32,000 bases of DNA from Alphaproteobacteria bacterium (GCA_017475605.1 JAFVFD010000002.1:150001-182000); one strand, 5' to 3'; counted from the first letter of the stretch, positions 8,161 to 31,621 are shown. Translations and numbers: made by a program. The notes: generated from the letters alone by a model not told the origin.

Positions 8161-8188
8161 ACCGCCGGAAACGGCGGTTTAATTTTTT
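8161..8188 (+). terminator. Intrinsic terminator after the His-rich gene
   Basis: The hairpin is 'accgccg-gaaa-cggcggt', followed by 'ttaatttttt'. Confidence 0.7.
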
Positions 8189-8264
8189 GGTCGGGGTGAC
8201 AGGAATCGAACCTGCGACCCCTTGCACCCCATGCAAGTACTCTACCAGGCTGAGCTACACCCCG
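8188..8264 (-). tRNA. tRNA-Pro (anticodon GGG)
   Basis: The reverse complement folds as a cloverleaf: acceptor CGGGGTG/CACCCCG, D arm GCTC...GAGT, anticodon arm CTTGC-ATGGGGT-GCAAG (U33, GGG, G37) and T arm GCAGG-TTCGATT-CCTGT. CCA is encoded. Length is 77 nt. Confidence 0.9.
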
Positions 8265-8654: not shown

Positions 8655-9038
8655 ATGATTATTGGTATTGGAATAGATTTGGTGGAAAGTGGCCGTTTTC
8701 TTGATTGGTCTGCTTTCAAAAAGCAACGCATATTTACAAAAAAAGAACTTGAATATGCCGACAACGACAACGCAAATGCAGAAAAGCATTTGGCAAATTT
8801 CTGGGCCGCACGCGAAGCATGTTTAAAGGCATTGGGCACCGGCTTTGGTGATGATATCGCTTTTTCTGATGTATCGGTTGTTCATAACGATTCGGGATGT
8901 CCAGAATTATTAATCGCCGGCGGGGCACGCGCCGCATTAAAAGAATTGGCGGGCACATCCGCGCGCGTTCATCTGTCTATCACAGACCAGGGCGATTATT
9001 CCGCCGCAATGGTTGTAATCGAAGGCGATGAAAAATAA
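8655..9038 (+). CDS. acpS: Holo-[acyl-carrier-protein] synthase (4'-phosphopantetheinyl transferase)
   Basis: The N-terminus 'MIIGIGIDLVE', 'FTKKELEY', 'AAREACLKALGTG' and 'HLSITDQGDYSAAMVVIE' are typical of AcpS. Length is 127 aa. AAGGAAGGA is the Shine-Dalgarno sequence. Confidence 0.85.
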   Translation: MIIGIGIDLVESGRFLDWSAFKKQRIFTKKELEYADNDNANAEKHLANFWAAREACLKALGTGFGDDIAFSDVSVVHNDSGCPELLIAGGARAALKELAGTSARVHLSITDQGDYSAAMVVIEGDEK

Positions 9039-11277: not shown

Positions 11278-11301
11278 GTGTGTATCCTGGGGTTTCAAGT
11301 A

Positions 11302-11937
11302 TTATTTCTTTTTCGGTGGTGTAAACTGATACGCCAATCTGCAATGTTCATAGCAATATGGTTTGCCGGTAAACACCTGTTTTCCACAGAAGTGGAAATT
11401 TTCAGAATCTGGATCACCAATCGGCCAACGGCACTGATTCGGTTTAAGATTCGCCAATTCCAACGAATGTTGAATTATGCGTTGATGCATCGCCAATGTT
11501 TTTGACGAACTTTTAGTCGATTTTGTCGCTGTTTCCTTGGGTGCTTCTGTTTTTACCTTTGCCGCCGGCTTTTTAGATTCCACCTTGGTCGGTGCCTTTT
11601 TCTTTTGTGCCGGGGCGGTCGTTGCCTTCTTTTCAGATTTGGTTTTTACGGTCGCAACAGGCTTCTTGGCCGGTGCCTTTTTTGCCACCGTTTTAGTTGT
11701 TTTTGTTGCGGTTGTCTTCTTGATAGTTACCGATGGTGCAACATCCTTCTTGGCAGGCTTGGCCGTTTTGGCATTTGTTGATGCGCCCGCCTTGGCATTC
11801 CAGCCCATACGATTTAATTTACCAACAACCGCATTCTTGGACAGACCCAAACGTTTACCAATTTCGGACGTGGACAAACCCTTGCCCATAAGGGCTTTCA
11901 GTTTTTTTAATGTTGCGTTATCCCAACCTTTACTCAT
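11302..11937 (-). CDS. gcrA: GcrA cell-cycle transcriptional regulator
   Basis: The N-terminus 'W..ATLKKLKALMGKGLSTSEIGKRLGLSKNAVVGKLNRMGW' and the C-terminus 'QCRWPIGDPDSENFHFCGKQVFTGKPYCYEHCRLAYQ' match the two conserved GcrA domains. They are separated by a Lys/Ala/Thr-rich linker. Confidence 0.9.
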   Translation of the reverse strand: MSKGWDNATLKKLKALMGKGLSTSEIGKRLGLSKNAVVGKLNRMGWNAKAGASTNAKTAKPAKKDVAPSVTIKKTTATKTTKTVAKKAPAKKPVATVKTKSEKKATTAPAQKKKAPTKVESKKPAAKVKTEAPKETATKSTKSSSKTLAMHQRIIQHSLELANLKPNQCRWPIGDPDSENFHFCGKQVFTGKPYCYEHCRLAYQFTPPKKK

Positions 11938-12509: not shown

Positions 12510-13412
12510 ATGAGAATAAAACACAGCATATTTTTCACACTATGCGTTGGTACATTTGTATCGGCGACAAACGCGGCACCGATTGCGCAAAACCCTACAT
12601 CTGTGCAGCCGATATCGCAATACGGCCTTATACAGAATGTACAAAATTATTCGTCTAATCCGTTTTGGAATCCCAATGGCCCATATAATCAGCGTATGCC
12701 CCAACCGGTATATGTCCAGGGTGCCGATTTAAATACCGCCGATTGCCAACGTACCGTTGGTACACTTGTCGCATCATATTGTGTTGATAATAATAACTGT
12801 GTCGGCATGCGGATAAGTGATATTCGCCCGGCGATGATGTTACAACTGGCGCGGTTGCCGGGACATAATTATGCGACGTCTTGTGCGGGGTTCATTGATT
12901 CTGAATTTGAAAGTTATGTTTCAAAATATTCAAATGCGGGGCCGTCCAATTCTTATGTTGCTTTTCCAAATGCGACCACACCTAATCCGGCAATTTATGA
13001 AACAGAATATGAAATACAAAACCCATATCAAATAAAAAACCGTACTTGGAACGGCGAGGAATGGGAAAAAGAAAAAAAGGAACGCATTCGCGAACTTGAT
13101 GAATTACAGGCACAGAACGGCGCAAACGATATTAAATTAGCGCGCGCTGATTTTCCAACCACTATTGACGATTTGTCATTTGATGAACGTATGGAATTGC
13201 AGGCTGCTGGATACGAACCATGGAAAGATGCCACACCATATCAGCAGATAAAGATTGAACGCGAAGAAGATTATTATAATCGCCGCAACGGTGGCACAAC
13301 CACGGTTTCAGATGCATCAACACCAAACGCACCAACAAAACCCGGCCAATCAACTGTTGTTTATCCAAATGTTCCGGGATATGACGGCGCAAAACTTGTT
13401 TATCTAAGATAA
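12510..13412 (+). CDS. Exported protein of unknown function (300 aa)
   Basis: The signal peptide is 'MRIKHSIFFTLCVGTFVSATNA'. There is a Cys-containing N-terminal half and a charged 'WEKEKKERIRELDELQ' segment. The gene lies 22 nt after the A24 peptidase gene. Confidence 0.75.
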   Translation: MRIKHSIFFTLCVGTFVSATNAAPIAQNPTSVQPISQYGLIQNVQNYSSNPFWNPNGPYNQRMPQPVYVQGADLNTADCQRTVGTLVASYCVDNNNCVGMRISDIRPAMMLQLARLPGHNYATSCAGFIDSEFESYVSKYSNAGPSNSYVAFPNATTPNPAIYETEYEIQNPYQIKNRTWNGEEWEKEKKERIRELDELQAQNGANDIKLARADFPTTIDDLSFDERMELQAAGYEPWKDATPYQQIKIEREEDYYNRRNGGTTTVSDASTPNAPTKPGQSTVVYPNVPGYDGAKLVYLR

Positions 13413-13416
13413 CGTT

Positions 13417-14415
13417 ATGAACAGATTTTGTCTTGCTTTTTTATTCGCATTTTTAGGCATTGTTTCAAATGCGACCGCCGCGAATCTGCAATGTTTGGCA
13501 GACATTGGCGCGAACGATGCGACATTTATAACCCCGATGTATAACGATGTGTTGGCGGGACAAGCACCGACCCAGGAAAACATTGATGCAAATAAACCAA
13601 AAATGTTCGGTCTGGTTGCGGCAAATGTTATATTACAATGCCTTAACGGCCCGGACAGAAATGATTTCCAAACCGTCGCAGACAGCAAAGAATTCATTAT
13701 TCCGTTCACTTATAAAGATAAAGTTAAATATAAGTTGCAGGTTGACACGGCAAAATTGTTTGACTATGTCAATTTGCCAACCGGTTTTTTAGTTGTCAAC
13801 AAACGCACATATATTCCAGGCGATGTTATAAAAAAATCTGATATGCCAACCGATTATTTCTTTAGCAGCGATTGTTCAGATCACTATGTTCGCCTTAATT
13901 TGTCAGATGACGCTGGGGTGAACGTGGCGGGTCAATCGGCATTTGCCGCATATGGTGGCAAAGAAAACGAATATTTCCTGGATTTTCCGGTTGAAAAAAA
14001 TTGCCGTGCATTCCCCGGTTTGGTATTGGGGGACTTTGGCGGATGGGGTGCCCCTGAAAAAATCATTGCATACACAAATTATCTGGATGCCCAGGGGGCC
14101 GCTGAATCTTTTGCCAAGGCATTACAAAACACATCATGCGCGAATCAAAACCTGGCCGTATATTTGGTATCACTGGAATCAATGCCGGCACAAAAGGATG
14201 GCACAACGGGCATAGTTATCGGCGCAGGTGTTGGTGGTGGGGCGGCGGCTGCAACATTAACCGCTGTTTTGGCATCTAATCCGGTTGGGTGGGTTGTTGG
14301 TGCCGTTGGTTTGGCGGTTGGCGGAATTATTGCCGGGGTATCTTCGTTGTTTTACAAAGACCTGGCCGATATTCAACAGGTGGTCGTTCTTAAAGGGCCA
14401 TATATAGTAAAATAG
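13417..14415 (+). CDS. Exported protein with a C-terminal glycine-zipper membrane hairpin (332 aa). Function unknown.
   Basis: The signal peptide is 'MNRFCLAFLFAFLGIVSNATA'. The C-terminus reads 'GIVIGAGVGGGAAAATLTAVLASNPVGWVVGAVGLAVGGIIAGV'. The start lies 4 nt after the previous stop. Confidence 0.75.
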   Translation: MNRFCLAFLFAFLGIVSNATAANLQCLADIGANDATFITPMYNDVLAGQAPTQENIDANKPKMFGLVAANVILQCLNGPDRNDFQTVADSKEFIIPFTYKDKVKYKLQVDTAKLFDYVNLPTGFLVVNKRTYIPGDVIKKSDMPTDYFFSSDCSDHYVRLNLSDDAGVNVAGQSAFAAYGGKENEYFLDFPVEKNCRAFPGLVLGDFGGWGAPEKIIAYTNYLDAQGAAESFAKALQNTSCANQNLAVYLVSLESMPAQKDGTTGIVIGAGVGGGAAAATLTAVLASNPVGWVVGAVGLAVGGIIAGVSSLFYKDLADIQQVVVLKGPYIVK

Positions 14416-14416
14416 T

Positions 14417-16279
14417 ATGTATGAAATTGTTGCGGTTTTATTTTCTGTGATTTTTATTGGTTCCGCATATTCTGCGGAACAACTTGTTCCAACGCAAAAT
14501 ATTGACACCCCCGGTTTTCGCACGGCCGATGAAATATTATATGCCAACCCCGATGATACAAGGTGCGCGACCGCGGTTTTTGCAAATGCATTGGCGACAA
14601 CGGCAAACGCTGTATCCGAAGATGACGATGAACAAACAATTCAGCAATGGATATATCAGACATTTTCAGTCCCAGATGTATTAAATGCGGTCTTACGGTG
14701 TCCCGAATTTCAAAACATTGCCGATGACGACAGTGTGCGTTTTTTACCAATAGAATATAATTTTCCCGGTGGCCGACAAATCGTTGTAAATTATGAAACC
14801 CAACCAAAGATTCTGAAACAACGTATAAACCTGGCATCTAAACGCAATGTGGCCGAATTAAACGACCCGAACCCACGTATAGGCGCGATTGACGATGAAG
14901 CGGTTTGGACTAATACTGACCCGGCATGGTATGCGATTATGGTTGTGCAACACGGAACACTGGATAACTTTGTCGGCCCCGATAAAAACAACACAATATC
15001 TTTAAAATACATAAATGACAATATTGACACACTGTATCCGCACGGGGCAATGTGTACCAGTAAAAGCGCACTGGCCAACGATAATGACATAATAAACATT
15101 GCCACACATAACACGGTTGGCATTGACGATGATTCCAATGATTACTATGTGGCGGGCGATGTTAATTTGCAATGGATTTCATACGCCGAAATTGCACTGG
15201 ATGTTGTAATCACGGTTGTAACATTTGGGGGTGGGGCAGCCGTTAGTGGCGCGACCAAGGCCGCCCGTGCATCAAAAACGGTTAAAAACCTGTCCCGCGG
15301 TATCAAGGAACTATCAAAAATTGATACTGTCAAAGATTACATTGTTCACACATCTAAATTGGCCCGCGCCGAAGGGAAATTATCACGCATCCGCGAAGTG
15401 CAACGACTGGAAAGCGAACTGGCCAAATTGGACCGGGTAAAAAATGCAAAAAAATATGCCGAAAAGGCCAAGGAACTGGAACACGCAACCACCCGCCTGC
15501 GCGAAGTGGATAAAATAACCGATGCATCCAAATATGGCAAAACTGAAATCACGGCAATGGAAAAAAACATTTCCGAAATGAAACAGGAATCTGAACGAAT
15601 GATACGGGCCGATAAAAATGTTGCCCAATATGCAAAATCAACCGAAGAACTTAAAAATGTTGAAAAGTATGCCCAGGCATACCGTACATTAAAGACCCAA
15701 AAAGCAGGTAATATTGCCACACGCGCATGGCGCGCGTTCAAGGCATCGCGTACCGGCGGCAAAACATTAAATCGCGGCGCGCGTGTTGCCAGGCAATCTA
15801 TGAAATCGGGGCGTGTGCGCGATTGGTTGTTTCAATCAACAATGCGCAATCTGGGCAAACTGGGTAAATTGGAATCGGCGGGCGGGGTGCTCTATGGTGC
15901 GTTAAAATTTGCCGGCGATATGTATGATTGGACCGAAACCAGCACTGGCGATTTTACAAGCGGAATTGAATTTAAGCCACTGTTATTGTTGTCCGCCGAC
16001 GATTTAGAAGGCCAGGAAAATGTCGTAAATTACGGCATGTGGCTTATGTGGGCGGGCGATGCAACGACCGCCGCCGATGATGATGCCGCATATTTACAGG
16101 CCTTTGATTTTGCAGACAAGTTCCATATGGACCTGCTTGAAACAATGGACGACAAAAACAGCACTGCATGTAATGTTGATATTTATGTCGTGCGCCCCGT
16201 ATTGCGAAACCCCAGCGGCGACAACCCGGAATTATATTATCTTGTTATGAACGACCAACCATGGACGACCGCCGAATGA
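14417..16279 (+). CDS. Membrane protein of unknown function (620 aa) with an N-terminal signal or anchor, a central TM helix, a Lys/Glu/Arg-rich coiled coil and an acidic C-terminal domain
   Basis: The N-terminus is 'MYEIVAVLFSVIFIGSAYSA' and the TM helix is 'IALDVVITVVTFGGGAAVSGA'. A long segment 'KLARAEGKLSRIREVQRLESELAKLDRVKNAKKYAEKAKELE...' follows. The start lies 1 nt after the previous stop. Confidence 0.75.
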   Translation: MYEIVAVLFSVIFIGSAYSAEQLVPTQNIDTPGFRTADEILYANPDDTRCATAVFANALATTANAVSEDDDEQTIQQWIYQTFSVPDVLNAVLRCPEFQNIADDDSVRFLPIEYNFPGGRQIVVNYETQPKILKQRINLASKRNVAELNDPNPRIGAIDDEAVWTNTDPAWYAIMVVQHGTLDNFVGPDKNNTISLKYINDNIDTLYPHGAMCTSKSALANDNDIINIATHNTVGIDDDSNDYYVAGDVNLQWISYAEIALDVVITVVTFGGGAAVSGATKAARASKTVKNLSRGIKELSKIDTVKDYIVHTSKLARAEGKLSRIREVQRLESELAKLDRVKNAKKYAEKAKELEHATTRLREVDKITDASKYGKTEITAMEKNISEMKQESERMIRADKNVAQYAKSTEELKNVEKYAQAYRTLKTQKAGNIATRAWRAFKASRTGGKTLNRGARVARQSMKSGRVRDWLFQSTMRNLGKLGKLESAGGVLYGALKFAGDMYDWTETSTGDFTSGIEFKPLLLLSADDLEGQENVVNYGMWLMWAGDATTAADDDAAYLQAFDFADKFHMDLLETMDDKNSTACNVDIYVVRPVLRNPSGDNPELYYLVMNDQPWTTAE

Positions 16280-17394
16280 ACATAAAAAAACATATTTTTT
16301 TGTTCGGAATAATACTTGCTATATGCGGCAATGTGTTCGCGGTGTCTCCCTATGCGACTACGATTGGACAGAATTTGCCAAAAAAATCTTTTTTAACAGC
16401 AACTTCATTTCCAACGACCATATCCGATGTGTCTTTTGTCGCCAGAATGGAAAACAAGCGCGAAGGATATTTACCATATTTTAACCGTTCTGCATTTGCC
16501 GATTTGTCATTGGACGAACAAGACGAATTGGAACAAATGGCATCTCGCGCCGATGTGGAACGACGGGAAACACTTAAAAACAACCCATCAAAATATTGTT
16601 CGTTTTATCCAGATGATTCTGGCAGGTGTGGCACACACCCAACGGAACCGGTAATACCACAGGCACAGACAACAGTACAACCCGATTCTATATACCCAAT
16701 CAGCCCATCAATCCAGATTGTGTCGGCTTATCCCGCCGGGCGTTATATGAACGCGGCGTTAACCCCGGAAAACATCGCAAAATACAACTTGCGCGCATAC
16801 AATGGTGGGTGTACGCCGCCGGAACGCAGCAATCATTGGCGAAACACCATTTTAACATCTGGACGGTACCAGTATTCGCACCCCGCATTTGAAAAATTTA
16901 TGATTACATCTTTCCGCAAGGAAGGCAGTTGTGGAAATCATCCGAACGACCATGGTGGCTATACTTGTTATGGGTGCGCATCAAAGGGCCTTTGTTCCGG
17001 GATAGATATGAGCCAGGTTACACGCCCCCTGGTCGAAGATTTGTATTATCAAAAGGTGTACACAAAATACAATGTTGCCAAATTACCCGATGCATTCCGC
17101 GGATATTTGCTGTGGGGGATGTCGGGTTCGGGCTCTGTAACCGGAATAAAGCAATTTCAGGGAACACTTGGTGTGCCATTGACTGGCAAAATAGATGCCG
17201 CAACCATTGCCGCCGCCGAAAATTATACTGGCGATTTTGCCGCCGCATACACTAAAAACAGAGAACAATTTTATCGAAATATTGTTGCCCGCGATTCAAC
17301 ACAACGCGTGTTTCTTAACGGCTGGCTGAACGGATTACAATTGTTACAACCGTCTGGTTGCCATGTCGTACCAACAAACCCGATTTACCGATAA
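16276..17394 (+). CDS. Exported lysozyme-like protein with a GH108-type N-acetylmuramidase core, a PG_binding_3-like C-terminus and an N-terminal extension of about 200 aa
   Basis: The ATG at 16276 overlaps the upstream TGA (ATGA coupling) and gives the signal peptide 'MNIKKHIFLFGIILAICGNVFA'. 'FRKEGSCGNHPNDHGGYTCYG' resembles the GH108 'EGGY.N.P.DPGG.T.YG' motif. The C-terminal 'FYRNIV......FLNGWLNG' resembles PG_binding_3. Confidence 0.6.
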   Translation: MNIKKHIFLFGIILAICGNVFAVSPYATTIGQNLPKKSFLTATSFPTTISDVSFVARMENKREGYLPYFNRSAFADLSLDEQDELEQMASRADVERRETLKNNPSKYCSFYPDDSGRCGTHPTEPVIPQAQTTVQPDSIYPISPSIQIVSAYPAGRYMNAALTPENIAKYNLRAYNGGCTPPERSNHWRNTILTSGRYQYSHPAFEKFMITSFRKEGSCGNHPNDHGGYTCYGCASKGLCSGIDMSQVTRPLVEDLYYQKVYTKYNVAKLPDAFRGYLLWGMSGSGSVTGIKQFQGTLGVPLTGKIDAATIAAAENYTGDFAAAYTKNREQFYRNIVARDSTQRVFLNGWLNGLQLLQPSGCHVVPTNPIYR

Positions 17395-18119: not shown

Positions 18120-18196
18120 TGGTGGATGTGGGCGGACTCGAACCGCCGACCCCTACGATGTGAACGTAGTGCTCTAACCAACTGAGCCACACATCC
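18120..18196 (-). tRNA. tRNA-Val (anticodon CAC)
   Basis: The reverse complement is GGATGTG-TG-GCTC-AGTTGGTTA-GAGC-A-CTACG-TTCACAT-CGTAG-GGGTC-GGCGG-TTCGAGT-CCGCC-CACATCC-A-CCA. Length is 77 nt. Confidence 0.9.
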
Positions 18197-18234
18197 TAAA
18201 TCGGTGGTCTGCCACACAAAGCCTTGACAAAGTG

Positions 18235-18321
18235 TGGTGGGGATAGTGGGACTTGAACCCACACGGTCGCAATGACCAAAGGATTTTAAGTCCTCAGCGT
18301 CTACCATTCCGCCATATCCCC
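18235..18321 (-). tRNA. tRNA-Leu (anticodon UAA)
   Basis: The acceptor is GGGGATA/TATCCCC, the anticodon arm is GAGGA-CTTAAAA-TCCTT, there is a long variable arm, and the T arm is GTGGG-TTCAAGT-CCCAC. CCA is encoded. Length is 87 nt. Confidence 0.9.
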
Positions 18322-18334
18322 GGACTTAACTTTT

Positions 18335-18355
18335 AAAACGCGCGCTTTGCGCGCG
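18335..18355 (-). terminator. GC hairpin plus U-tract inside the tRNA cluster. It could be a terminator or a processing signal.
   Basis: The minus strand reads 'cgcgcgc-aaa-gcgcgcg-tttt'. It lies between tRNA-Ala and tRNA-Leu(UAA). Confidence 0.45.
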
Positions 18356-18361
18356 GAAACT

Positions 18362-18437
18362 TGGTGGAGCTGATGGGACTCAAACCCACGACCTCTACGA
18401 TGCGAACGTAGCGCTCTATCAACTGAGCTACAACCCC
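18362..18437 (-). tRNA. tRNA-Ala (anticodon CGC)
   Basis: The acceptor GGGGTTG/CAGCTCC contains the G3:U70 Ala identity pair. The anticodon arm is CTACG-TTCGCAT-CGTAG and the T arm is GTGGG-TTTGAGT-CCCAT. CCA is encoded. Length is 76 nt. Confidence 0.88.
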
Positions 18438-18453
18438 AAAACTTTCATTCATA

Positions 18454-18540
18454 TGGTGGGCATAAGAAGACTCGAACTTCCAAGGTATTGCTACCACTAG
18501 TACCTGAAACTAGCGCGTCTACCAATTCCGCCATATGCCC
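18454..18540 (-). tRNA. tRNA-Leu (anticodon CAG)
   Basis: The acceptor is GGGCATA/TATGCCC, the anticodon arm is CTAGT-TTCAGGT-ACTAG, there is a long variable arm, and the T arm is GGAAG-TTCGAGT-CTTCT. CCA is encoded. Length is 87 nt. Confidence 0.9.
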
Positions 18541-18693: not shown

Positions 18694-21408
18694 ATGAAGA
18701 ATATCCTGATTTTTATTATTGCGATTGCAATGTCTTTGTCGCACGCAAACGGTGCTGTGCGTGATGGCAACACATTGTCGCGCGGCACACAAAAACGGAT
18801 TACGACCACACCGGCTGTTGAACGCACAACAACCGCACGAACAACCGTCTTGAAACCGACAAAAAGCACGACAAATCGGGGCGTTTCAAATGTTACACAA
18901 CGCGGCAACAATCAGGCAAATATCGTCAGCCGGACCGCAACCACCCAAAATGTTACGGCACGCGCCACCACACAGAACCAATCACTTGTAACCGAAACCC
19001 GCACTGGCGCGGCCTATGAAACCTGTAAATCGGCATTTTTTACATGTATGGACCAATTTTGCGCACTAAAAAATGATGATTACCGCCGTTGTTCGTGCAG
19101 CAAACGTGTATCAAACCTGGAAAAGCAACGCAACACTTTGACAGATGCGGGCGAAAAACTTACTGTGTTTACGGAAAATCTTGATGTTGTTGGCTTAACC
19201 GCGGCCCAGGCAACAGCAATGCGTACCGCATCCGAAGGGGAAAACGCGCTGGCATCAGACACATCTGCATCCAAGGCATTATTACAAGCCATAATGAATT
19301 CTATTTCGGGGGGCGACACATCTGTTAGTGGCAAATATTCTGACCTAAACACAATAAATATGTCGTACGATTTGACAACGGCATTTGGATCCGATGCAAA
19401 CCAAATCGTCGCTTCCTATAACGGCCAGGAATTGTATTCGGCGGTATATCCACAATGTCGTCATGCCGTTGCCGATGATTGTAATACAGCATCGTTACAA
19501 CGCGCAGTAAACGCATACCTTATGGCTATTGAACAAGACTGTAATACCGTACAAACCGCAATTATTGAGAAACAATCACAAATGAAATCCGCCATCCGCG
19601 AAGGTAGCGCCATGTTGGATCTGGCACGCGTTGAAAATCGTCGTAAACATAATTCTGACGATATTACCACATGTATAAACAATGTAGAGGCCGCAATTTT
19701 AAGCGAAGAAGTTTGTGGCGCAAATTATCATAAATGCTTGGACAACGGTGAATTTATCGATATATCGACAGGCGCACCCATCACAGGTGTTGTAAAGTTT
19801 TACGAGTTGGGTAAATTATTAACTTTTGCCCCGGGTGTTGATGCCGCCAACCAACAATTGTCAAAGCGGCCAAATAATCGTACATTTGTTTTAAACTTTG
19901 AAAAACGCACAAAGAAATTCGCAGAACCGGCATTGGACAAGTGTACCGATATCGCGGACGAAGTATGGTCCGAATACCTGGACAAAGCGATGTTGACAAT
20001 TTATTATGCCCAGCAAACCAAGGTTTCTGATATTAAACAGGCCTGTTTCGATTTAGTGTCAAAATGTTACACCGACAGCGACACATCTATTACCGCGGCG
20101 ATGTCGGAATTGGTCGGTTCTGGTCTAACAATTTTGGAACCAGACAAAATCGCACTTACCACACAAATGTGTGTCGATTATGTTGATTCTTGTAACAACA
20201 TGTTTGATGGTAATATTGTTGCCGAATATGTTAATACCCGTCAAGACACAGATACACTTAGTGCATGTCGTGCCGTTGTAAAACAATGTTTTGATAAATA
20301 CGGTGGCACAGGGTATGAAAACTTCTACTATCCATACAGTGGCTTGTTTCAAGCAGGCGAAACATCCGACCCCAACATTGTTCGGGCGGGTGATTGGTTC
20401 ACACTTTATGACAAAACAGGGCGCACGCTAACGGCATATAAATCACCCTGTGCAAAACAGTTGGCAACTATTGACGCATGTAAAGGCATCGTAGAAGAAG
20501 CATTTGGTGGATTTGATTTAATGTACACACAAAAGGGTACGGACGAAACAGACCAATTGTCTTTTGAAATTTTGTCATCAAGTGGAACACCACGTTATGG
20601 TATCGCCCAAACAGAAAACAAAATGCGCAATCGTGTTTTACGTCCAACGGGTGTTGCCACCGAGGTTTACAATCAAATTATCGATACACTTACCACACAG
20701 TGCACCAATATCAAAGGACGGTTTGTTGAACGCCAATTTATCAAAGAAAATATATACGGTGGTAAAAACAAAGACAACATCTGTCTTTGGTACCCCCAGG
20801 GTAGCGAAGATAATTCAGAAGGCCAAAACGAATCTTCATTGTTCAAGAATTATAAAATATTGGCAACATTGTACGGCATATTTACAAATGACCCCCAACA
20901 ATCAACCATAAGTATTCCAGACGATTTTATCGGCGAAAATATGTGCCCACGCGATTATAACATTAATGTTGATACTGCTTTCTGGGGGGCATGTTTATGT
21001 TGGGAAAATGGTGCCCGCCGCAGTAAAAATGGGCGAAATGCAACCTGTGTTGCAGAATTGCCTGTATTACCAAAAGAAACGACCGATGACACCACAGGCG
21101 AAACGACAACAACACACGCAAACGATGGGGTATGTTACAATATAACCAAGGACGAAACAACCAACGAAGAAACACTTGAATGGCTGTATCCACTTGCCAG
21201 CAGTACAAATTCAACATCGAATTTCTATGATTGGTGCCAACAGCAATCTATCAATTCCGCAGATCAGGTTTGTCCATATGGCTATACGGCGGGGGATAGC
21301 CCTGATAAACAATCAATAATATGTGTTGATGCCGATGGTAAAGCGTTTGAATCAAAAGAAAATCAATACTATGAAGCGTATAAATTGTTGCCAGAACCAC
21401 TTAAATAA
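18694..21408 (+). CDS. Large exported Cys-rich protein of unknown function (904 aa)
   Basis: The signal peptide is 'MKNILIFIIAIAMSLSHANG'. It is followed by a Thr/Arg/Asn-rich low-complexity tract ('RTATTQNVTARATTQNQS') and then about 800 aa with many cysteines ('CKSAFFTCMDQFCALKNDDYRRCSC'). A terminator follows. Confidence 0.8.
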   Translation: MKNILIFIIAIAMSLSHANGAVRDGNTLSRGTQKRITTTPAVERTTTARTTVLKPTKSTTNRGVSNVTQRGNNQANIVSRTATTQNVTARATTQNQSLVTETRTGAAYETCKSAFFTCMDQFCALKNDDYRRCSCSKRVSNLEKQRNTLTDAGEKLTVFTENLDVVGLTAAQATAMRTASEGENALASDTSASKALLQAIMNSISGGDTSVSGKYSDLNTINMSYDLTTAFGSDANQIVASYNGQELYSAVYPQCRHAVADDCNTASLQRAVNAYLMAIEQDCNTVQTAIIEKQSQMKSAIREGSAMLDLARVENRRKHNSDDITTCINNVEAAILSEEVCGANYHKCLDNGEFIDISTGAPITGVVKFYELGKLLTFAPGVDAANQQLSKRPNNRTFVLNFEKRTKKFAEPALDKCTDIADEVWSEYLDKAMLTIYYAQQTKVSDIKQACFDLVSKCYTDSDTSITAAMSELVGSGLTILEPDKIALTTQMCVDYVDSCNNMFDGNIVAEYVNTRQDTDTLSACRAVVKQCFDKYGGTGYENFYYPYSGLFQAGETSDPNIVRAGDWFTLYDKTGRTLTAYKSPCAKQLATIDACKGIVEEAFGGFDLMYTQKGTDETDQLSFEILSSSGTPRYGIAQTENKMRNRVLRPTGVATEVYNQIIDTLTTQCTNIKGRFVERQFIKENIYGGKNKDNICLWYPQGSEDNSEGQNESSLFKNYKILATLYGIFTNDPQQSTISIPDDFIGENMCPRDYNINVDTAFWGACLCWENGARRSKNGRNATCVAELPVLPKETTDDTTGETTTTHANDGVCYNITKDETTNEETLEWLYPLASSTNSTSNFYDWCQQQSINSADQVCPYGYTAGDSPDKQSIICVDADGKAFESKENQYYEAYKLLPEPLK

Positions 21409-27237: not shown

Positions 27238-27264
27238 TTAGCGGCAGTTACAATCGTTTTAAAA

Positions 27265-27287
27265 CCGCCCGTTTGGGCGGTTTTTTT
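27265..27287 (+). terminator. Intrinsic terminator after rpiB
   Basis: The hairpin is 'ccgccc-gttt-gggcgg', followed by 'ttttttt'. Confidence 0.8.
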
Positions 27288-27365: not shown

Positions 27366-27536
27366 AAAATCGGCGTTTTGTGCCGTGAAATCAATATGTT
27401 ATGCAAAATAAAAGTGGCCTAATTTAAACGGCCGTTTTGTTTCGGCCATCCGACAATCTCATTTTACCCGGTTTTCCGGGACTTTGTCAATCACAAAAAT
27501 GGCCGAATCAAAACGGCCGTTTTGTTTCGGCCACCC
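27366..27536. repeat. Three copies of a short hairpin-forming element. The last two are 27-nt direct repeats, and the last sits in a 34-bp near-perfect palindrome.
   Basis: 'aaacggccgttttgtttcggcca(t/c)ccg' occurs at 27426-27452 and 27510-27536. A related 'atcggcgttttgtgccg' occurs at about 27369-27385. 'tggccgaatcaaaacggccgttttgtttcggcca' (27499-27532) equals its reverse complement except for one symmetric mismatch pair. Confidence 0.7.
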
Positions 27537-27579
27537 GCAGAAACATTGGCCCGCCGGGCCAAAGGGAAAGGGGACAAAA

Positions 27580-28374
27580 ATGAAACACTATTATTCATCA
27601 TTTATATTTTTCAGCATATTATGCACAATTTCGCAATCGTATGCCGCACCAAATTGTGGGAGCGGAACATGCCGATCGTACACATGGATTAGTGGGCAGA
27701 ATGTGTTTTCTTGTCCGATAAGTATGGGCACATGCAGTTGTTGCAACATATCCGGTAGTGGTTGCGGTTACTATGATTGCGGTAGTGCCGAAAAAGAAAT
27801 AGATGATGGCGATTGTGAGCAAGGTTTTTATCTTTCAGGCACGGGTAGTCTGGCATCGTGTCAGCAATGTCCAAACGCAAGTTTTTATACAGATGCCGCA
27901 TTGTCGCAAACAGCCAGTGTCATTAGTGGCAACGTATCATCCAACAACGCCATTACCGGCATCGGGGGATGTTTCGTTACAAACAATTCTTCCTATTATG
28001 ACAATACCGGGCAATTCAGCCTGAACAGTGCGTGTTTCTACAGCACAGACAACGAACAAGAACCCGTTGAGGACGATGAAGAAGAAGAAGATTCAGGTGC
28101 AACCCAGGGCAGCATACCATATCAATATTGCACACAAACCCAGGTCCAACAAAAGTTAAAAAGCCTGGCTGCTGAGCAACTGAGTGGGATGGACGCGGAC
28201 GAAATTAATATATACGCCAACCTTATGACCGATTACGGGATGGACTCTTTGGGGTTCGTGGAGATGATGTTGGATGTAGAAGACGAATTTGGCATAGATA
28301 TTAACGAGTCAGACTTTGTCAACAAACGAACAATTGCAGAAATTACAGATGTAGTTTTAGACAGATATTGTTAA
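27580..28374 (+). CDS. Fusion protein of a signal peptide, a Cys-rich domain, an acidic linker and a C-terminal acyl/peptidyl-carrier (PP-binding) domain (264 aa)
   Basis: 'aaggggacaaaaATG' sits at 27580. The signal peptide is 'MKHYYSSFIFFSILCTISQSYA'. The next roughly 165 residues contain 16 Cys, and the linker is 'EPVEDDEEEEDSG'. The C-terminal 'LMTDYGMDSLGFVEMMLDVEDEFGIDINESDF' has the ACP 'DSL' phosphopantetheine-attachment signature. A terminator follows. Confidence 0.75.
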   Translation: MKHYYSSFIFFSILCTISQSYAAPNCGSGTCRSYTWISGQNVFSCPISMGTCSCCNISGSGCGYYDCGSAEKEIDDGDCEQGFYLSGTGSLASCQQCPNASFYTDAALSQTASVISGNVSSNNAITGIGGCFVTNNSSYYDNTGQFSLNSACFYSTDNEQEPVEDDEEEEDSGATQGSIPYQYCTQTQVQQKLKSLAAEQLSGMDADEINIYANLMTDYGMDSLGFVEMMLDVEDEFGIDINESDFVNKRTIAEITDVVLDRYC

Positions 28375-28396
28375 AACGGGCCCCGTATCCACAAAA

Positions 28397-28429
28397 ACCG
28401 CCAAAAACGGCGGTTTTCTGCGGTTTTTT
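28397..28429 (+). terminator. Intrinsic terminator after the ACP-fusion gene
   Basis: The hairpin is 'accgcc-aaaaac-ggcggt', followed by 'tttctgcggtttttt'. Confidence 0.7.
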
Positions 28430-28838
28430 AAGGGTCTTATTGCGTTTTTTAGGTCAAAATCATGGTCCAAAAGCCCGAAAATCCGCCATTTTTTGGTGGT
28501 TTTTTTCAAAATTCGGGGCGGGAAAGGGCGCAAATCGCAAAAAACCTGTGCAAAACAACACAAATAAGTAAAACAGCGGGTATCTGGTTAATTAACACGG
28601 GGCCAAGCATAACAAAACAAACATATGAAAAGCATATCAAGATTTGTAACAAATAAAACCATCGTGAACAAATCTGAAAAACATTTTGAAACAAAATTAA
28701 AAATACAATCATAGAAATGATAACATTTTGATATCACAAACAATTTCGCACAATTATACACAAAAGCACTCTTTTCGCCCACCTTTCAACCCTAAACTAT
28801 ACATAATATACATTATGCGCCTTTTGTATATAGATTCC

Positions 28839-28856
28839 CCCGCAGATTTCTGCGGG
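28839..28856 (+). other. Stable hairpin in the gene-free gap. It may be the 3' end of an sRNA or a weak terminator.
   Basis: The hairpin is 'cccgcag-attt-ctgcggg', followed by 'tttc'. The arm 'cccgcagaaa' recurs at 27534 and 29079. Confidence 0.35.
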
Positions 28857-29205
28857 TTTCGCGCGATTCATATAAAATTATTATAATTTTATCCCCCATA
28901 GGCAACACAAGTAACCACATTTTATAGATTTTTTCGTAAAATCATATTGTTTTACGAATATTTTTATAAATTATTTTAATCTTTTGGCTGCCACACCCCA
29001 CTATGCCTGCAACGCCCGGTTTTCCGCCACTTTTCGAAAAAACACCACGAATTTTGACCATGCCAAGAACCGCCCCGACCCGCAGAAATCCGCGCGTTTT
29101 ACGACTTTTTATACCAATAAACACATACCACCAAACCATCCAAACAACCACAAAACCGCCATTTTTATCAAAAACCACCACAATTATCACACAAAACCAA
29201 CCAAT

Positions 29206-29230
29206 AAAAACACCCCGAAACATCGGGGTG
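29206..29230 (-). terminator. Intrinsic terminator of mscL
   Basis: The minus strand reads 'caccccga-tgtt-tcggggtg-ttttt'. It lies 33 nt downstream of the mscL stop. Confidence 0.75.
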
Positions 29231-29262
29231 TTAAAATTAATTCGCTTTATTATAAAAACAAA

Positions 29263-30460: not shown

Positions 30461-31621
30461 ATGAAACATATATCATTGTTATCTGTATTTGTCGCCGCGG
30501 CGGGCGTGGCAACATCGGCACACACCGCGCCAATGGGTGCATACGCAAACGGTATCGCAACACACAATATCGCGGTTATTCAACATTCTATTATGATGAC
30601 AACTTTTAATCCGTTGGATATTGCGCCGGCCGGCACCCCATCGACACAATGTGCGGGTCATTTTGTTCGCCATACACATGACGAAAAAACGGCTGAAAAC
30701 GACAAGACGGTTGTGGATCCATCGCTGTACGGGAAAATGCCAATTTATGGCGAAATGAAATACTATGGCGAATATGGCGACGATGGTTCGTTAAAACGCA
30801 AATCTGGGCGCAGCGGTGGCGACGAAGAAGAATCAGCACCCGCGGAAACGGAACGTCGTTTTGTTGGCAACCTTACTGTTGGATGGCAACATTTTGATGA
30901 CCAGGTGGAATTTGACAACGTGGCAAAAACAGATTCTAAATACGATTTAATTTCATTGAACCTGGTTGGTGGTCGCAATCAATTAAGCGGCGGTGTATCT
31001 GAATGGGGACTTTTTGGTGGTTTCATCAATTCTGACGAAGAAGCAGATTCGTTAACCACGGCCGAAAACGGCGGGTACATCGGTTTATACAAGGGGTATT
31101 CGTTACATGGTGTTGGTTTATCAATGGGTGTCAATGGCGGTATATTACGTAACAAGGGCGAAATGCCCGCCGGCACTGATAAATTCAACAACAAATGGTT
31201 GGGTGCCGCGTTGAACATAACATACAACATCGCGCTGACGGATTCATTTTCGCTTCAACCCGGTGCTTATGCTGGATATACATGGATAAAGTCTGCAAAT
31301 TACACATCCGTAACCGGCGATAAAATTGAAAACGATAACCTTAAAATGTTTGAAATGTCCTATGCCCTGCGCGCGATTACGCATATTGGTAATAATTGGT
31401 ACGGTATATTGTCCGGTCGTTATGTTATGAATATGGCGAACGATGCGAACATCACCGTCGCAGGTGCCGCACTGCCGGAATTGGAACTGGATAATTATTG
31501 GGAATACGGCATTATGATTGAAAAGAATATAGACCGATTCAACATTGGGGTTTCAATCAATCGTCGCGATGGCGCACGCACCGGTTGGAACGGCGGTGTC
31601 ATATTGAAATATATATTCTAA
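30461..31621 (+). CDS. Outer-membrane beta-barrel protein (autotransporter-beta-domain-like C-terminus, very short N-terminal part)
   Basis: The signal peptide is 'MKHISLLSVFVAAAGVATSAHT'. The C-terminal half has alternating aromatic/Gly beta-strand patterns and ends 'GWNGGVILKYIF' with a terminal Phe. A terminator follows. Confidence 0.55.
   Translation: MKHISLLSVFVAAAGVATSAHTAPMGAYANGIATHNIAVIQHSIMMTTFNPLDIAPAGTPSTQCAGHFVRHTHDEKTAENDKTVVDPSLYGKMPIYGEMKYYGEYGDDGSLKRKSGRSGGDEEESAPAETERRFVGNLTVGWQHFDDQVEFDNVAKTDSKYDLISLNLVGGRNQLSGGVSEWGLFGGFINSDEEADSLTTAENGGYIGLYKGYSLHGVGLSMGVNGGILRNKGEMPAGTDKFNNKWLGAALNITYNIALTDSFSLQPGAYAGYTWIKSANYTSVTGDKIENDNLKMFEMSYALRAITHIGNNWYGILSGRYVMNMANDANITVAGAALPELELDNYWEYGIMIEKNIDRFNIGVSINRRDGARTGWNGGVILKYIF

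What the first reader, a model, noticed from the sequence alone, without database searches (positions are those of the whole stretch)
27580..28374. Acyl-carrier (PP-binding) domain fused behind a Sec signal peptide and a Cys-rich, eukaryote-like domain
The C-terminal roughly 80 residues ('VQQKLKSLAAEQLSGMDADEINIYANLMTDYGMDSLGFVEMMLDVEDEFGIDINESDFVNKRTIAEITDVVL') have the helix pattern and 'DSL' serine of ACP/PCP carrier domains. Carrier proteins are normally cytoplasmic and are loaded by cytoplasmic PPTases; acpS is at 8655. This one follows a canonical signal peptide ('...CTISQSYA|AP'). Next come about 165 residues with 16 Cys, including 'CEQGFYLSGTGSLASCQQCP', a spacing reminiscent of furin-like/GCC-type Cys repeats. 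A poly-acidic linker then connects to the carrier domain. There are three possibilities: an exported carrier protein, which would be unusual biology; an uncleaved N-terminal segment with the Cys-rich part binding metal in the cytoplasm; or a PP-binding fold co-opted as a non-carrier module. No synthase, ligase or acyltransferase gene is adjacent.
Basis: partly seen in the sequence, partly recalled or inferred. Interest (0 to 1): 0.72.

Follow-up and report, generated by a model that had tools for sequence, protein, structure and literature searches.

The report
Exported cysteine-rich protein carrying an ACP domain
A gut alphaproteobacterium encodes a secreted, disulfide-rich protein whose tail is a normal-looking acyl carrier domain, a module otherwise known only inside the cell, and no other protein with this combination turned up in billions of public sequences.

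Summary
Window 27580-28374 (+) encodes 264 aa in four parts:
- a Sec-type signal peptide (residues 1-22)
- a Cys-rich domain (23-155)
- an acidic linker (156-183)
- a PP-binding/ACP domain (184-264; Pfam 48.4 bits against a cut-off of 20.8), with the DSL serine aligned to solved ACPs

The Cys-rich part belongs to no known eukaryotic family. It belongs to an undescribed family of about 110 small proteins from uncultured gut Alphaproteobacteria. Nearly all have a signal peptide, most have an odd number of Cys, and most end 2-4 residues after the last Cys. Only this protein continues into an ACP.

Homology to the family reaches upstream of Met49, the start used in ENA/Logan gene calls, so ATG 27580 is the real start. 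No in-frame start codon could yield a separate intact ACP. The carrier domain must therefore follow the Cys-rich domain across the membrane.

Engineered preMBP-ACP and preYebF-ACP are phosphopantetheinylated in the cytosol and then exported by Sec (PMC3418276), so a holo-carrier outside the cell is feasible. acpS lies at 8655-9038.

The fusion is a singleton with no diverged orthologues. Whether the domain acts as a carrier, a passive acidic appendage or a neutral fusion is unresolved. I rate it a new variant of a known kind, of moderate to high interest.

The parts
27261..27284 (+). Intrinsic-terminator-like hairpin ending the upstream rpiB gene; marks the fusion gene as a separate transcription unit
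   Evidence: 10-bp stem, 6 GC pairs, T-run
27410..27537 (.). Two copies (27410-27452, 27495-27537; 88% identical) of a 43-nt palindromic element in the 5' region. Possible operator or 5'-UTR hairpins; function unknown
   Evidence: 3 matches in the window, all here; 0 expected by chance
27570..27574 (+). Shine-Dalgarno-like GGGGA, 5 nt upstream of ATG 27580
27580..28374 (+). Complete CDS, 264 aa plus stop. Identical to NCBI MBR2285995.1 'MAG: acyl carrier protein [Alphaproteobacteria bacterium]'
27580..27645 (+). Sec (SPase I) signal peptide, residues 1-22, MKHYYSSFIFFSILCTISQSYA; predicted cleavage A22|A23
   Evidence: Sequence inspection. Family-wide N-terminal signal peptides. Alignment to P0003 across the cleavage site. 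The family profile matches the STII signal peptide of a Fab construct (weak)
27646..27801 (+). Variable N-terminal part of the Cys-rich domain (residues 23-74; 8 Cys). It includes family-conserved C26, C31, W36 and C45, all upstream of Met49
   Evidence: AF2 pLDDT < 50
27802..28044 (+). Conserved C-terminal module of the family (residues 75-155; C79, C94, C97, C131, C152; 'CxxG[FY]Y..C..CP...GC[FY]...YYD.TG.F.L.S.C.Y'). In homologues the protein ends here
   Evidence: AF2 pLDDT 84-95, small beta-hairpin fold
28045..28128 (+). Acidic linker, residues 156-183 (11 D/E, no K/R); predicted disordered
   Evidence: pLDDT 34-54
28129..28371 (+). ACP / PP-binding domain, residues 184-264. Predicted helices 186-201, 206-218, 223-237 and 249-263. 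Flanked by C184 (28129-28131) and C264 (28369-28371)
28246..28248 (+). Codon of Ser223 in the D-S-L motif, the candidate 4'-phosphopantetheine attachment site at the start of helix II
28393..28428 (+). Terminator-like hairpin(s) just after the stop codon
   Evidence: (I12)
8655..9038 (+). acpS (holo-ACP synthase, 127 aa), the cytoplasmic PPTase that could load the domain before export. It is not linked to the gene (19 kb away)
   Evidence: PF01648, 52.5 bits against 25

Best explanation
The gene encodes a Sec-exported fusion protein.

Shown or strongly inferred:
- Translation starts at ATG 27580.
- Residues 1-22 form a cleavable Sec signal peptide.
- Residues 23-155 belong to an undescribed family of secreted, disulfide-rich proteins from gut Alphaproteobacteria.
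- In this lineage alone, the family's normal C-terminus continues through a 28-residue acidic linker into a sequence-typical ACP domain.
- There is one hydrophobic segment and no internal start for the ACP, so the ACP domain must cross the inner membrane behind the Cys-rich domain.

Inferred mechanism:
- The signal peptide is only moderately hydrophobic and the ACP is the last part synthesised and translocated.
- The domain could therefore fold transiently in the cytoplasm and receive 4'-phosphopantetheine on Ser223 from AcpS.
- SecA/SecYEG would then unfold and export it, as demonstrated for engineered preMBP-ACP and preYebF-ACP.
- Outside the cytoplasm it refolds, and a C184-C264 disulfide may staple its adjacent termini.
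- It would then display a Ppant thiol, or whatever was loaded on it, in the envelope or extracellular space.
- There it would act as a single-use covalent tether, not as an iterative carrier.
For: - ACP identity: PF00550 at 48.4 bits; about 46 bits to several NCBIfam ACP models; 88 solved ACPs hit, with the DSL serine aligned; a PHROG ACP family.
- The helix II recognition residues are retained: D222, S223, L224, E228, E234, D235, E236, F237 correspond to E. coli D35, S36, L37, E41, E47-49, F50 (E. coli sequence from memory).
- AF2 predicts four helices with Ser223 at the N-terminus of helix II.
- Export: n-h-c signal peptide. The family search found 110 proteins. 102 of 104 homologues have signal-peptide-like N-termini.
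- Homology to P0003 spans residues 9-101 and crosses the cleavage site, SYA|APNCGSGTC against AYA|QPDCITGSC.
- There is no in-frame start codon between codons 108 and 204, so an intact ACP cannot be made separately.
- Feasibility of holo-export through Sec: PMC3418276.
- acpS is present in the window.
- Both halves have native composition: GC 0.44 and 0.43, GC3 0.42 and 0.44, against 0.35-0.49 for neighbouring genes.
- Two Cys sit exactly at the ACP domain borders. E. coli ACP has no Cys (sequence from memory). This fits adaptation to an oxidising compartment.
- The same locus appears in at least three ENA/Logan records, and the 264-aa product is also an NCBI MAG protein.
Against: - No diverged orthologue of the fusion exists in 5.8 billion proteins or 1.84 billion representatives. 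Conservation of Ser223, C184 or C264 therefore cannot be tested.
- No loading enzyme, acyltransferase or acceptor gene is nearby.
- Known extracytoplasmic acylation systems keep their carrier in the cytoplasm (my own knowledge).
- No natural exported ACP turned up in the literature library.
- In the engineered system, only a fraction of the exported ACP was holo unless AcpS was overexpressed.
- All NCBIfam ACP scores are below their curated cut-offs.
- The D38-equivalent residue is Gly225.
- The AF2 confidence for the ACP part is only 66-79, and the full-length model did not retrieve ACP structures by Foldseek.
- SignalP could not be run.
Confidence: 0.4

Rival explanations
1. The protein is exported, but the ACP domain is not used as a carrier. 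It travels as a very acidic, highly soluble, fast-folding appendage. It might keep the Cys-rich precursor soluble and export-competent, or act as a binding module for a partner in the envelope or host. Ser223 would be unmodified or irrelevant.
For: - ACP fusion is a known solubility and stability tag (abstract of PMC10006060).
- The linker and the ACP are both strongly acidic: D+E against K+R is 11 to 0 in the linker and 17 to 5 in the ACP domain.
- Four family members carry other C-terminal tails; the one read in full is acidic and Ser-rich (P0031). The family therefore tolerates C-terminal appendages.
- There are no partner enzymes nearby.
- Export through Sec competes with cytosolic modification.
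Against: - The DSL motif and the acidic helix II patch are fully retained, although there is no time-scale to say they should have decayed.
- AcpS enzymes are permissive, and engineered C-terminal ACP fusions do become holo before export. Some modification is therefore hard to avoid.
Confidence: 0.3
2. The fusion is a recent, lineage-specific accident. A stop codon was lost, or a small deletion occurred, between a Cys-rich family gene and a downstream stand-alone acp gene. The product has no selected function and may be mildly deleterious or on its way to decay.
For: - It is a singleton: only 100%-identical copies exist.
- Family proteins normally stop 2-4 residues after the last Cys.
- The 28-codon linker has the length of a typical intergenic spacer and contains purine-rich, SD-like sequence (GAAGAAGAAGAAGATTCAGGTG).
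- Composition is native in both halves.
Against: - The reading frame is intact over 264 codons.
- The ACP is already far from housekeeping AcpP (37 bits to TIGR00517 against a cut-off of 70), yet it keeps the functional motif.
- Cys residues sit precisely at both domain borders, which suggests adaptation after fusion.
- No homologous locus with separate genes was found: family members at other loci have no acp neighbour.
Confidence: 0.2
3. The protein is cytoplasmic. Either translation begins at Met49, as in the ENA/Logan gene calls (216 aa), or the N-terminal hydrophobic segment is not a signal. In that case the Cys cluster binds metal and the ACP works as an ordinary cytoplasmic carrier.
For: Automated gene calls in three ENA/Logan records start at Met49. 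An ordinary cytoplasmic ACP would need no special explanation.
Against: - Homology to family members covers residues 9-48, including nearly invariant C26, C31 and W36.
- ATG 27580 has a GGGGA Shine-Dalgarno-like motif 5 nt upstream, while Met49 has none.
- NCBI annotates the 264-aa form.
- 102 of 104 homologues have signal-peptide-like N-termini.
- The conserved module models as a small beta-hairpin Cys-rich fold whose only, sub-threshold, resemblances are extracellular receptor modules.
Confidence: 0.05

Closest known systems
Type II fatty-acid-synthase acyl carrier proteins (AcpP-like; Pfam PF00550 PP-binding)
   Same: An ~80-residue acidic helical domain. The D-S-L serine sits at the start of helix II, and the acidic helix II recognition patch is present. 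It shows significant sequence similarity to 88 solved ACPs.
   Different: The domain is fused to the C-terminus of a signal-peptide-bearing Cys-rich protein. It scores below every NCBIfam ACP cut-off and is about 28% identical to E. coli AcpP. Cys residues sit at both domain borders. It lies outside any fab, pks or lipid gene cluster.
Engineered preMBP-ACP and preYebF-ACP fusions (Chen et al. 2012, PMC3418276)
   Same: The order of parts is the same: Sec signal peptide, secreted passenger, flexible linker, C-terminal ACP. Those fusions were shown to be phosphopantetheinylated by cytosolic AcpS and then exported by Sec.
   Different: Those are laboratory constructs in E. coli. This one is a natural chromosomal gene, and its modification and export are untested.
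Carrier-dependent envelope modification systems that keep the carrier inside (DltC/DltB D-alanylation, AlmF/AlmG)
   Same: A small PP-binding carrier serves a reaction whose product ends up outside the cytoplasm (my own knowledge).
   Different: In those systems the carrier has no signal peptide and stays cytoplasmic, and a membrane enzyme passes the group across. They are encoded in operons with a ligase and a transferase. None of that is seen here.
Eukaryotic Cys-rich receptor repeats (Ephrin_rec_like/GCC2_GCC3, TNFR, furin-like, Giardia VSP)
   Same: The spacing C-x2-G-[FY]-Y-x8-9-C-x2-C-P is shared. The small disulfide-rich beta-hairpin module gives only sub-threshold fold matches, to CaSR, 4-1BB, DR5 and EphB2.
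   Different: This protein gives no such Pfam hit even at E <= 10. Only 1-2 of 68 family members give weak hits. All fold matches have E > 1. The family is bacterial.
Organelle-targeted ACPs of eukaryotes (apicoplast ACP with a signal plus transit peptide; mitochondrial ACP)
   Same: An ACP is preceded by an N-terminal targeting sequence and crosses membranes unfolded (my own knowledge). Mitochondrial ACPs are among the best PDB sequence hits.
   Different: Those are delivered to a compartment that contains a PPTase and a FAS. Here the destination is the bacterial periplasm or exterior, where no such enzymes are known.

Membership tests
PP-binding / acyl carrier protein superfamily (PF00550) | Profile match above the curated gathering score | tested here: met
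   48.4 bits against 20.8, E 1.2e-12, residues 192-258 cover profile positions 2-66 of 67
PP-binding / acyl carrier protein superfamily (PF00550) | Conserved serine in a (D)SL motif at the N-terminus of helix II | tested here: met
   D222-S223-L224 aligns with DSL of 6lvt, 1x3o and 7b0n_U. The AF2 helix 223-237 starts at S223
PP-binding / acyl carrier protein superfamily (PF00550) | Four-helix ACP fold | tested here: inconclusive
   AF2 predicts four helices in the expected order, but pLDDT is only 66-79 because no ACP sequences could be added to the alignment. Foldseek with the full model did not retrieve ACPs. The fold is inferred from sequence homology
PP-binding / acyl carrier protein superfamily (PF00550) | Actual 4'-phosphopantetheinylation of the serine | not testable with these tools
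   Needs mass spectrometry (+340 Da). acpS is present at 8655-9038
Housekeeping AcpP (NCBIfam TIGR00517 / PRK00982 equivalogs) | Score above the equivalog cut-off | tested here: not met
   37.2 bits against 70.45 for TIGR00517. The best score is 46.8 against 71 for NF002148. All 19 models are below their cut-offs
Sec / signal peptidase I secretory proteins | N-terminal n-h-c signal peptide with small residues at -3 and -1 | tested here: met
   K2; hydrophobic core residues 6-16 (Kyte-Doolittle 1.87); S20-Y21-A22|A23. The same layout is seen in 102 of 104 homologues. This was a heuristic only: SignalP and DeepTMHMM were not available
Bacterial lipoproteins (SPase II) | Lipobox [LVI][ASTVI][GAS]C | tested here: not met
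   The only Cys in the leader (C15) is preceded by S-I-L, and Leu at -1 does not fit (sequence)
Tat substrates | Twin-arginine motif in the n-region | tested here: not met
   There is no Arg in residues 1-22
Ephrin_rec_like / GCC2_GCC3 / furin-like / TNFR Cys-rich repeats | Significant profile or fold match | tested here: not met
   No Pfam hit at E <= 10 for this protein. Isolated weak hits occur in 1-2 of 68 homologues. The family profile against PDB sequences finds nothing. The best Foldseek E-value is 1.2
Undescribed secreted Cys-rich family of gut Alphaproteobacteria (this work; P0002-P0111) | Conserved module C-x2-G-[FY]-Y...C-x2-C-P...C...Y-D-x-T-G...C-x-Y with invariant C79, G82, C94, C97, C131, G144 | tested here: met
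   phmmer E 1.6e-5 to P0002 and 1e-4 to P0003 against 1.84 billion proteins. The profile search gives 110 members. Invariant columns are listed
Undescribed secreted Cys-rich family of gut Alphaproteobacteria (this work; P0002-P0111) | Protein ends 1-4 residues after the last conserved Cys | tested here: not met
   98 of 105 alignment rows end 1-4 residues after the last Cys. Here 112 more residues follow C152

The most novel reading that the evidence does not exclude
This would be a natural extracytoplasmic carrier protein. The ACP domain would be converted to the holo form, and perhaps acylated, in the cytoplasm, then threaded through SecYEG. It would work outside the cell as a covalent thiol or thioester handle. 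One possibility is that it pairs its Ppant thiol with the unpaired cysteine implied by the odd Cys count in 64 of 68 family members. Another is that it donates an acyl group to an envelope or host target. Either would be a mode of carrier-protein biology not described in bacteria.
Probability: 0.2. Interest if true: 0.85.

Novelty: new variant of a known kind. Interest (0 to 1): 0.6.

Why it matters
Carrier proteins are treated as strictly cytoplasmic. Every known envelope acylation system works around that by passing the group through a membrane enzyme. A natural protein that takes an intact, motif-bearing ACP domain through the Sec pathway would show that nature uses the route demonstrated only in engineered E. 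coli fusions. It would also give a simple test object for three questions:
- whether phosphopantetheinylated chains pass SecYEG in vivo
- whether a Ppant thiol has a role in an oxidising compartment
- what the large, undescribed family of secreted odd-Cys proteins does in reduced-genome gut Alphaproteobacteria

If the fusion is neutral instead, it is still a clean example of domain accretion by stop-codon loss. It also shows that automated annotation hides unusual architectures: NCBI names it plainly 'acyl carrier protein', and other pipelines truncate it at Met49.

Tried and rejected
- A homologue search with the ACP domain alone returned no candidates, not even the protein itself. The nearest ACP relatives and any other fused ACPs could therefore not be listed, and no ACP sequences could be added to the AF2 alignment.
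- The genome-contig scan returned only an unrelated Sphingobium ACP (33% identity over 55 residues), so the organism is not among the species representatives scanned.
- Two metagenome-contig scans, one with the single protein and one with the family alignment, found nothing.
- An exact look-up of the 264-aa product found no contig on record.
- The family profile against PDB sequences matched only the STII signal peptide of a Fab construct.
- Paper searches for sample accessions and for phrases such as 'periplasmic/secreted/exported acyl carrier protein' found nothing.
- No paralogue of the Cys-rich family exists elsewhere in the window or in L001.
- No Rfam family lies near the gene.
- The alternative TTG start at 27484 was rejected. 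It would place the second palindromic repeat inside the coding region and push the hydrophobic segment to residues 37-52.
- Horizontal transfer was rejected because composition is native.
- Model coordinates are not exposed, so the C184-C264 distance could not be measured.

Full report
**1. What is in the sequence**

Window 27580-28374 (+) is an uninterrupted ORF of 264 codons. An rpiB terminator-like hairpin (27261-27284) precedes it, and a hairpin terminator (28393-28428) follows immediately. It therefore looks monocistronic. A GGGGA Shine-Dalgarno-like motif lies 5 nt upstream of ATG 27580.

The product has four parts:
- Residues 1-22: MKHYYSSFIFFSILCTISQSYA.
- Residues 23-155: 13 Cys.
- Residues 156-183: TDNEQEPVEDDEEEEDSGATQGSIPYQY, with 11 acidic and no basic residues.
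- Residues 184-264: the carrier domain.

**2. The carrier domain is real**

- Pfam PP-binding matches residues 192-258 at 48.4 bits against a gathering score of 20.8 (E 1.2e-12), covering 65 of 67 profile positions.
- NCBIfam ACP models score up to 46.8 bits, but all fall below their equivalog or subfamily cut-offs. It is a divergent ACP, not a copy of housekeeping AcpP.
- A PHROG ACP family also matches.
- Against PDB sequences, 88 distinct ACPs match (best 6lvt, E 2.6e-9). D222-S223-L224 aligns with the DSL motif of the solved proteins.
- Compared with E. coli AcpP (sequence from memory; 20 of 71 identical), the helix II residues D35, S36, L37, E41, E47-49 and F50 are all matched. D38 is replaced by Gly225.
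- AF2 had family sequences covering only the N-terminal half. It predicts helices 186-201, 206-218, 223-237 and 249-263 at pLDDT 66-79, with S223 at the start of helix II. The full-length model did not retrieve ACP structures by Foldseek, so the fold rests on sequence homology.

**3. The Cys-rich domain belongs to an undescribed bacterial family, not a eukaryotic one**

- A full HMMER search of residues 1-186 against 1.84 billion representative proteins found three things. These were the protein itself, two small proteins (P0002, 133 aa; P0003, 205 aa) and one repetitive protein that is probably spurious.
- A profile of the three real sequences then retrieved 110 proteins of about 130-320 aa. 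None carries any precomputed Pfam domain apart from this protein's own entry.
- Source names, where present, are mostly 'MAG: hypothetical protein [Alphaproteobacteria bacterium]'. Others carry Muribaculaceae or Lachnospiraceae labels, which I suspect are mis-binned MAGs.
- Several genomes hold multiple copies. For example, five members lie on one 473-kb contig.
- All members share the C-terminal module 'YRCAAGYYGSSTNGTSGCTQCP..GVYT....RGTS.AG.TAITGCY...GTYYD.TGTF..T.NC.Y'. In this protein C79, G82, C94, C97, C131 and G144 are the invariant positions.
- 98 of 105 alignment rows end 1-4 residues after the last Cys. Only four have longer, apparently low-complexity tails.
- The number of Cys downstream of the first conserved Cys is odd in 64 of 68 members. 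This implies one unpaired or intermolecularly bonded Cys.
- Pfam gives this protein no Cys-repeat hit even at E <= 10. Among 68 members there are only isolated weak hits: VSP in two, and Furin-like_2 and TNFR_ELAPOR1 in one each.
- AF2 models the conserved module with pLDDT 84-95 as a small beta-hairpin structure, while residues 24-73 are not confidently modelled.
- Foldseek against the PDB finds nothing significant. The best sub-threshold matches (E 1.2-7) are extracellular Cys-rich modules of CaSR, 4-1BB, DR5 and EphB2.
- The 'furin/GCC-like' spacing is therefore a resemblance, not membership.

**4. The protein is almost certainly exported, with the ACP attached**

- The leader has a basic n-region (K2), a hydrophobic core (Kyte-Doolittle mean 1.87 for residues 6-16) and S-Y-A|A at -3 to +1. 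It has no lipobox and no twin arginine.
- A simple n/h/c heuristic finds the same layout in 102 of 104 homologues.
- The only PDB sequence that the family profile touches is the STII secretion signal of a Fab construct (weak, E 3.7).
- BLASTP against P0003 aligns residues 9-101 across the predicted cleavage site, SYA|APNCGSGTCRSYTW against AYA|QPDCITGSCNDYTW.
- The nearly invariant family positions C26, C31 and W36 lie upstream of Met49.
- The 216-aa gene model used in ENA and Logan records (P0001) is therefore truncated. The 264-aa NCBI model (MBR2285995.1, 'acyl carrier protein') is right.
- There is only one hydrophobic segment.
- No ATG, GTG or TTG lies in frame between codons 108 and 204, and a start at M204 would delete helix I. 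An intact ACP can therefore be made only as part of the exported chain.

**5. Is it an artefact or foreign DNA?**

- The same locus, with identical synteny (lpxB-lpxA ... M23 peptidase-bactofilin-rpiB-X-mscL-aroK), occurs in at least three ENA/Logan records, and the 264-aa product is also an NCBI MAG protein. Some of these may derive from the same reads.
- GC and GC3 of both halves (0.44/0.42 and 0.43/0.44) match the neighbouring genes.
- The window is alphaproteobacterial, with GcrA at 11302-11937.
- The record tag 'XIEF21-1' suggests the ruminant gastrointestinal MAG study of Xie et al. 2021. That study highlights reduced-genome Alphaproteobacteria of the order RF32 (PMC8199421). This link is my inference.

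**6. How it most likely works**

Shown or strongly inferred: the start codon, the signal peptide, membership of a secreted Cys-rich family, the genuine ACP sequence, and obligatory co-export.

Inferred:
- The leader is only moderately hydrophobic and the ACP is the last segment made and translocated. It can therefore fold briefly in the cytoplasm and be phosphopantetheinylated by AcpS (acpS at 8655-9038).
- It would then be unfolded and exported by Sec. Chen et al. 2012 demonstrated exactly this sequence of events for preMBP-ACP and preYebF-ACP in E. coli. They used urea-PAGE, MALDI (+340 Da) and an S36A control (PMC3418276).
- Outside the cytoplasm, C184 and C264 could form a staple. They lie just before helix I and just after helix IV. 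In the up-down-down ACP topology these two ends are adjacent (established ACP structural knowledge; not measured here).
- The domain would then display a Ppant thiol, or its cargo, in the envelope or exterior as a single-use covalent handle.

I give this 0.40.

**7. Rivals**

(a) The ACP travels as a passive acidic, solubility-giving or partner-binding appendage (0.30). ACP is a known solubility and stability tag (PMC10006060 abstract). Four family members carry other C-terminal tails, and the one read in full (P0031) is acidic and Ser-rich.

(b) The fusion is a neutral, recent product of stop-codon loss (0.20). This fits its singleton status and the 28-codon linker, which resembles an intergenic spacer. 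Arguing against it are the retained motif, the border cysteines and the absence of any acp neighbour at other family loci.

(c) The protein is cytoplasmic, made from Met49 or with an uncleaved leader (0.05). Section 4 contradicts this.

**8. Comparison with what is known, and novelty**

- The carrier domain is a member of the PP-binding superfamily but not of the AcpP equivalogs.
- The architecture matches engineered Sec-ACP fusions. It contrasts with DltC- and AlmF-type systems, which keep the carrier inside the cell.
- Three literature searches found no natural exported ACP. This covers only the held library.
- Searches of 5.8 billion and 1.84 billion proteins found no second protein that combines the Cys-rich family with an ACP domain.
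- I classify it as a new variant of a known kind: a known domain in an unprecedented topological context, attached to an undescribed secreted family.
- Interest is 0.6. The architecture is real and surprising, but with no diverged orthologues its function cannot yet be separated from accident.

Noticed in passing
window 27410-27452 and 27495-27537: Two 88%-identical copies of a 43-nt palindromic element (core TGGCCGAATCAAAACGGCCGTTTTGTTTCGGCCA) sit between the rpiB terminator and the start codon. They occur nowhere else in the 32-kb window, with 0 matches expected by chance. They could be an operator pair or 5'-UTR hairpins.
   Followed up: partly
window 28375-29262: About 900 bp downstream of the gene has no convincing ORF. 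GC falls to 0.31 and GC skew is strongly negative (to -0.43). The stretch contains several degenerate copies of an AAAACCGCC...GGCGGTTTT hairpin motif. It has no Rfam match. A 93-aa ORF on the minus strand is called as a gene in public records but has no Pfam hit.
   Followed up: partly
window 27580-28374 versus P0001 (L001 10001-10651): ENA and Logan gene calls start this gene at Met49 (216 aa), which removes the signal peptide and three conserved family residues. NCBI calls the full 264 aa but names it simply 'acyl carrier protein'.
   Followed up: yes
family P0002-P0111 (alignments A2, A3): The secreted Cys-rich family has an odd number of mature cysteines in 64 of 68 members (mostly 15, 17, 19 or 21). 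Its C-terminal end is near-invariant, C-x-Y-x-x followed by the stop. It is multi-copy in single MAGs. No Pfam family covers it.
   Followed up: partly
L005 8001-8402 and L010 6001-6717: Two family members from different MAGs (P0002, P0025) occupy the same syntenic slot, secA - 111-aa ORF - X - dnaE - rsmH. At least some family loci are therefore vertically inherited. One of the MAGs is labelled Muribaculaceae, which looks like a mis-binning.
   Followed up: no
window 195-6167, 9139-11298 (-), 18694-21408: Three very large ORFs (1990, 719 and 904 aa) have no Pfam match at E <= 0.001. The 719-aa and 904-aa ORFs also have no PHROG match; the 1990-aa ORF was not scanned against PHROGs.
   Followed up: partly
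window 12510-17394: Four consecutive same-strand ORFs are involved. Three (300, 332 and 620 aa) have no family match. They are followed by a 377-aa protein with GH108 and PG_binding_3 domains, which matches the PHROG endolysin family phrog_315. This may be a phage or tail-like remnant.
   Followed up: partly
window 18120-18540 (-) and 8188-8264 (-): A cluster of four tRNA genes (Val-CAC, Leu-TAA, Ala-CGC, Leu-CAG) and a separate tRNA-Pro-GGG.
   Followed up: no
window 30461-31621: A 386-aa ORF has only a weak precomputed Autotransporter (PF03797) hit. It may be a small outer-membrane beta-barrel protein, two genes downstream of the fusion gene.
   Followed up: no
alignment A3 against PDB chain 9yfu_C: The only PDB sequence touched by the family profile is the STII secretion leader (MKKNIAFLLASMFVFSIATNAYA) left on a recombinant Fab light chain. 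This is incidental support that the family N-termini are Sec signal peptides.
   Followed up: yes
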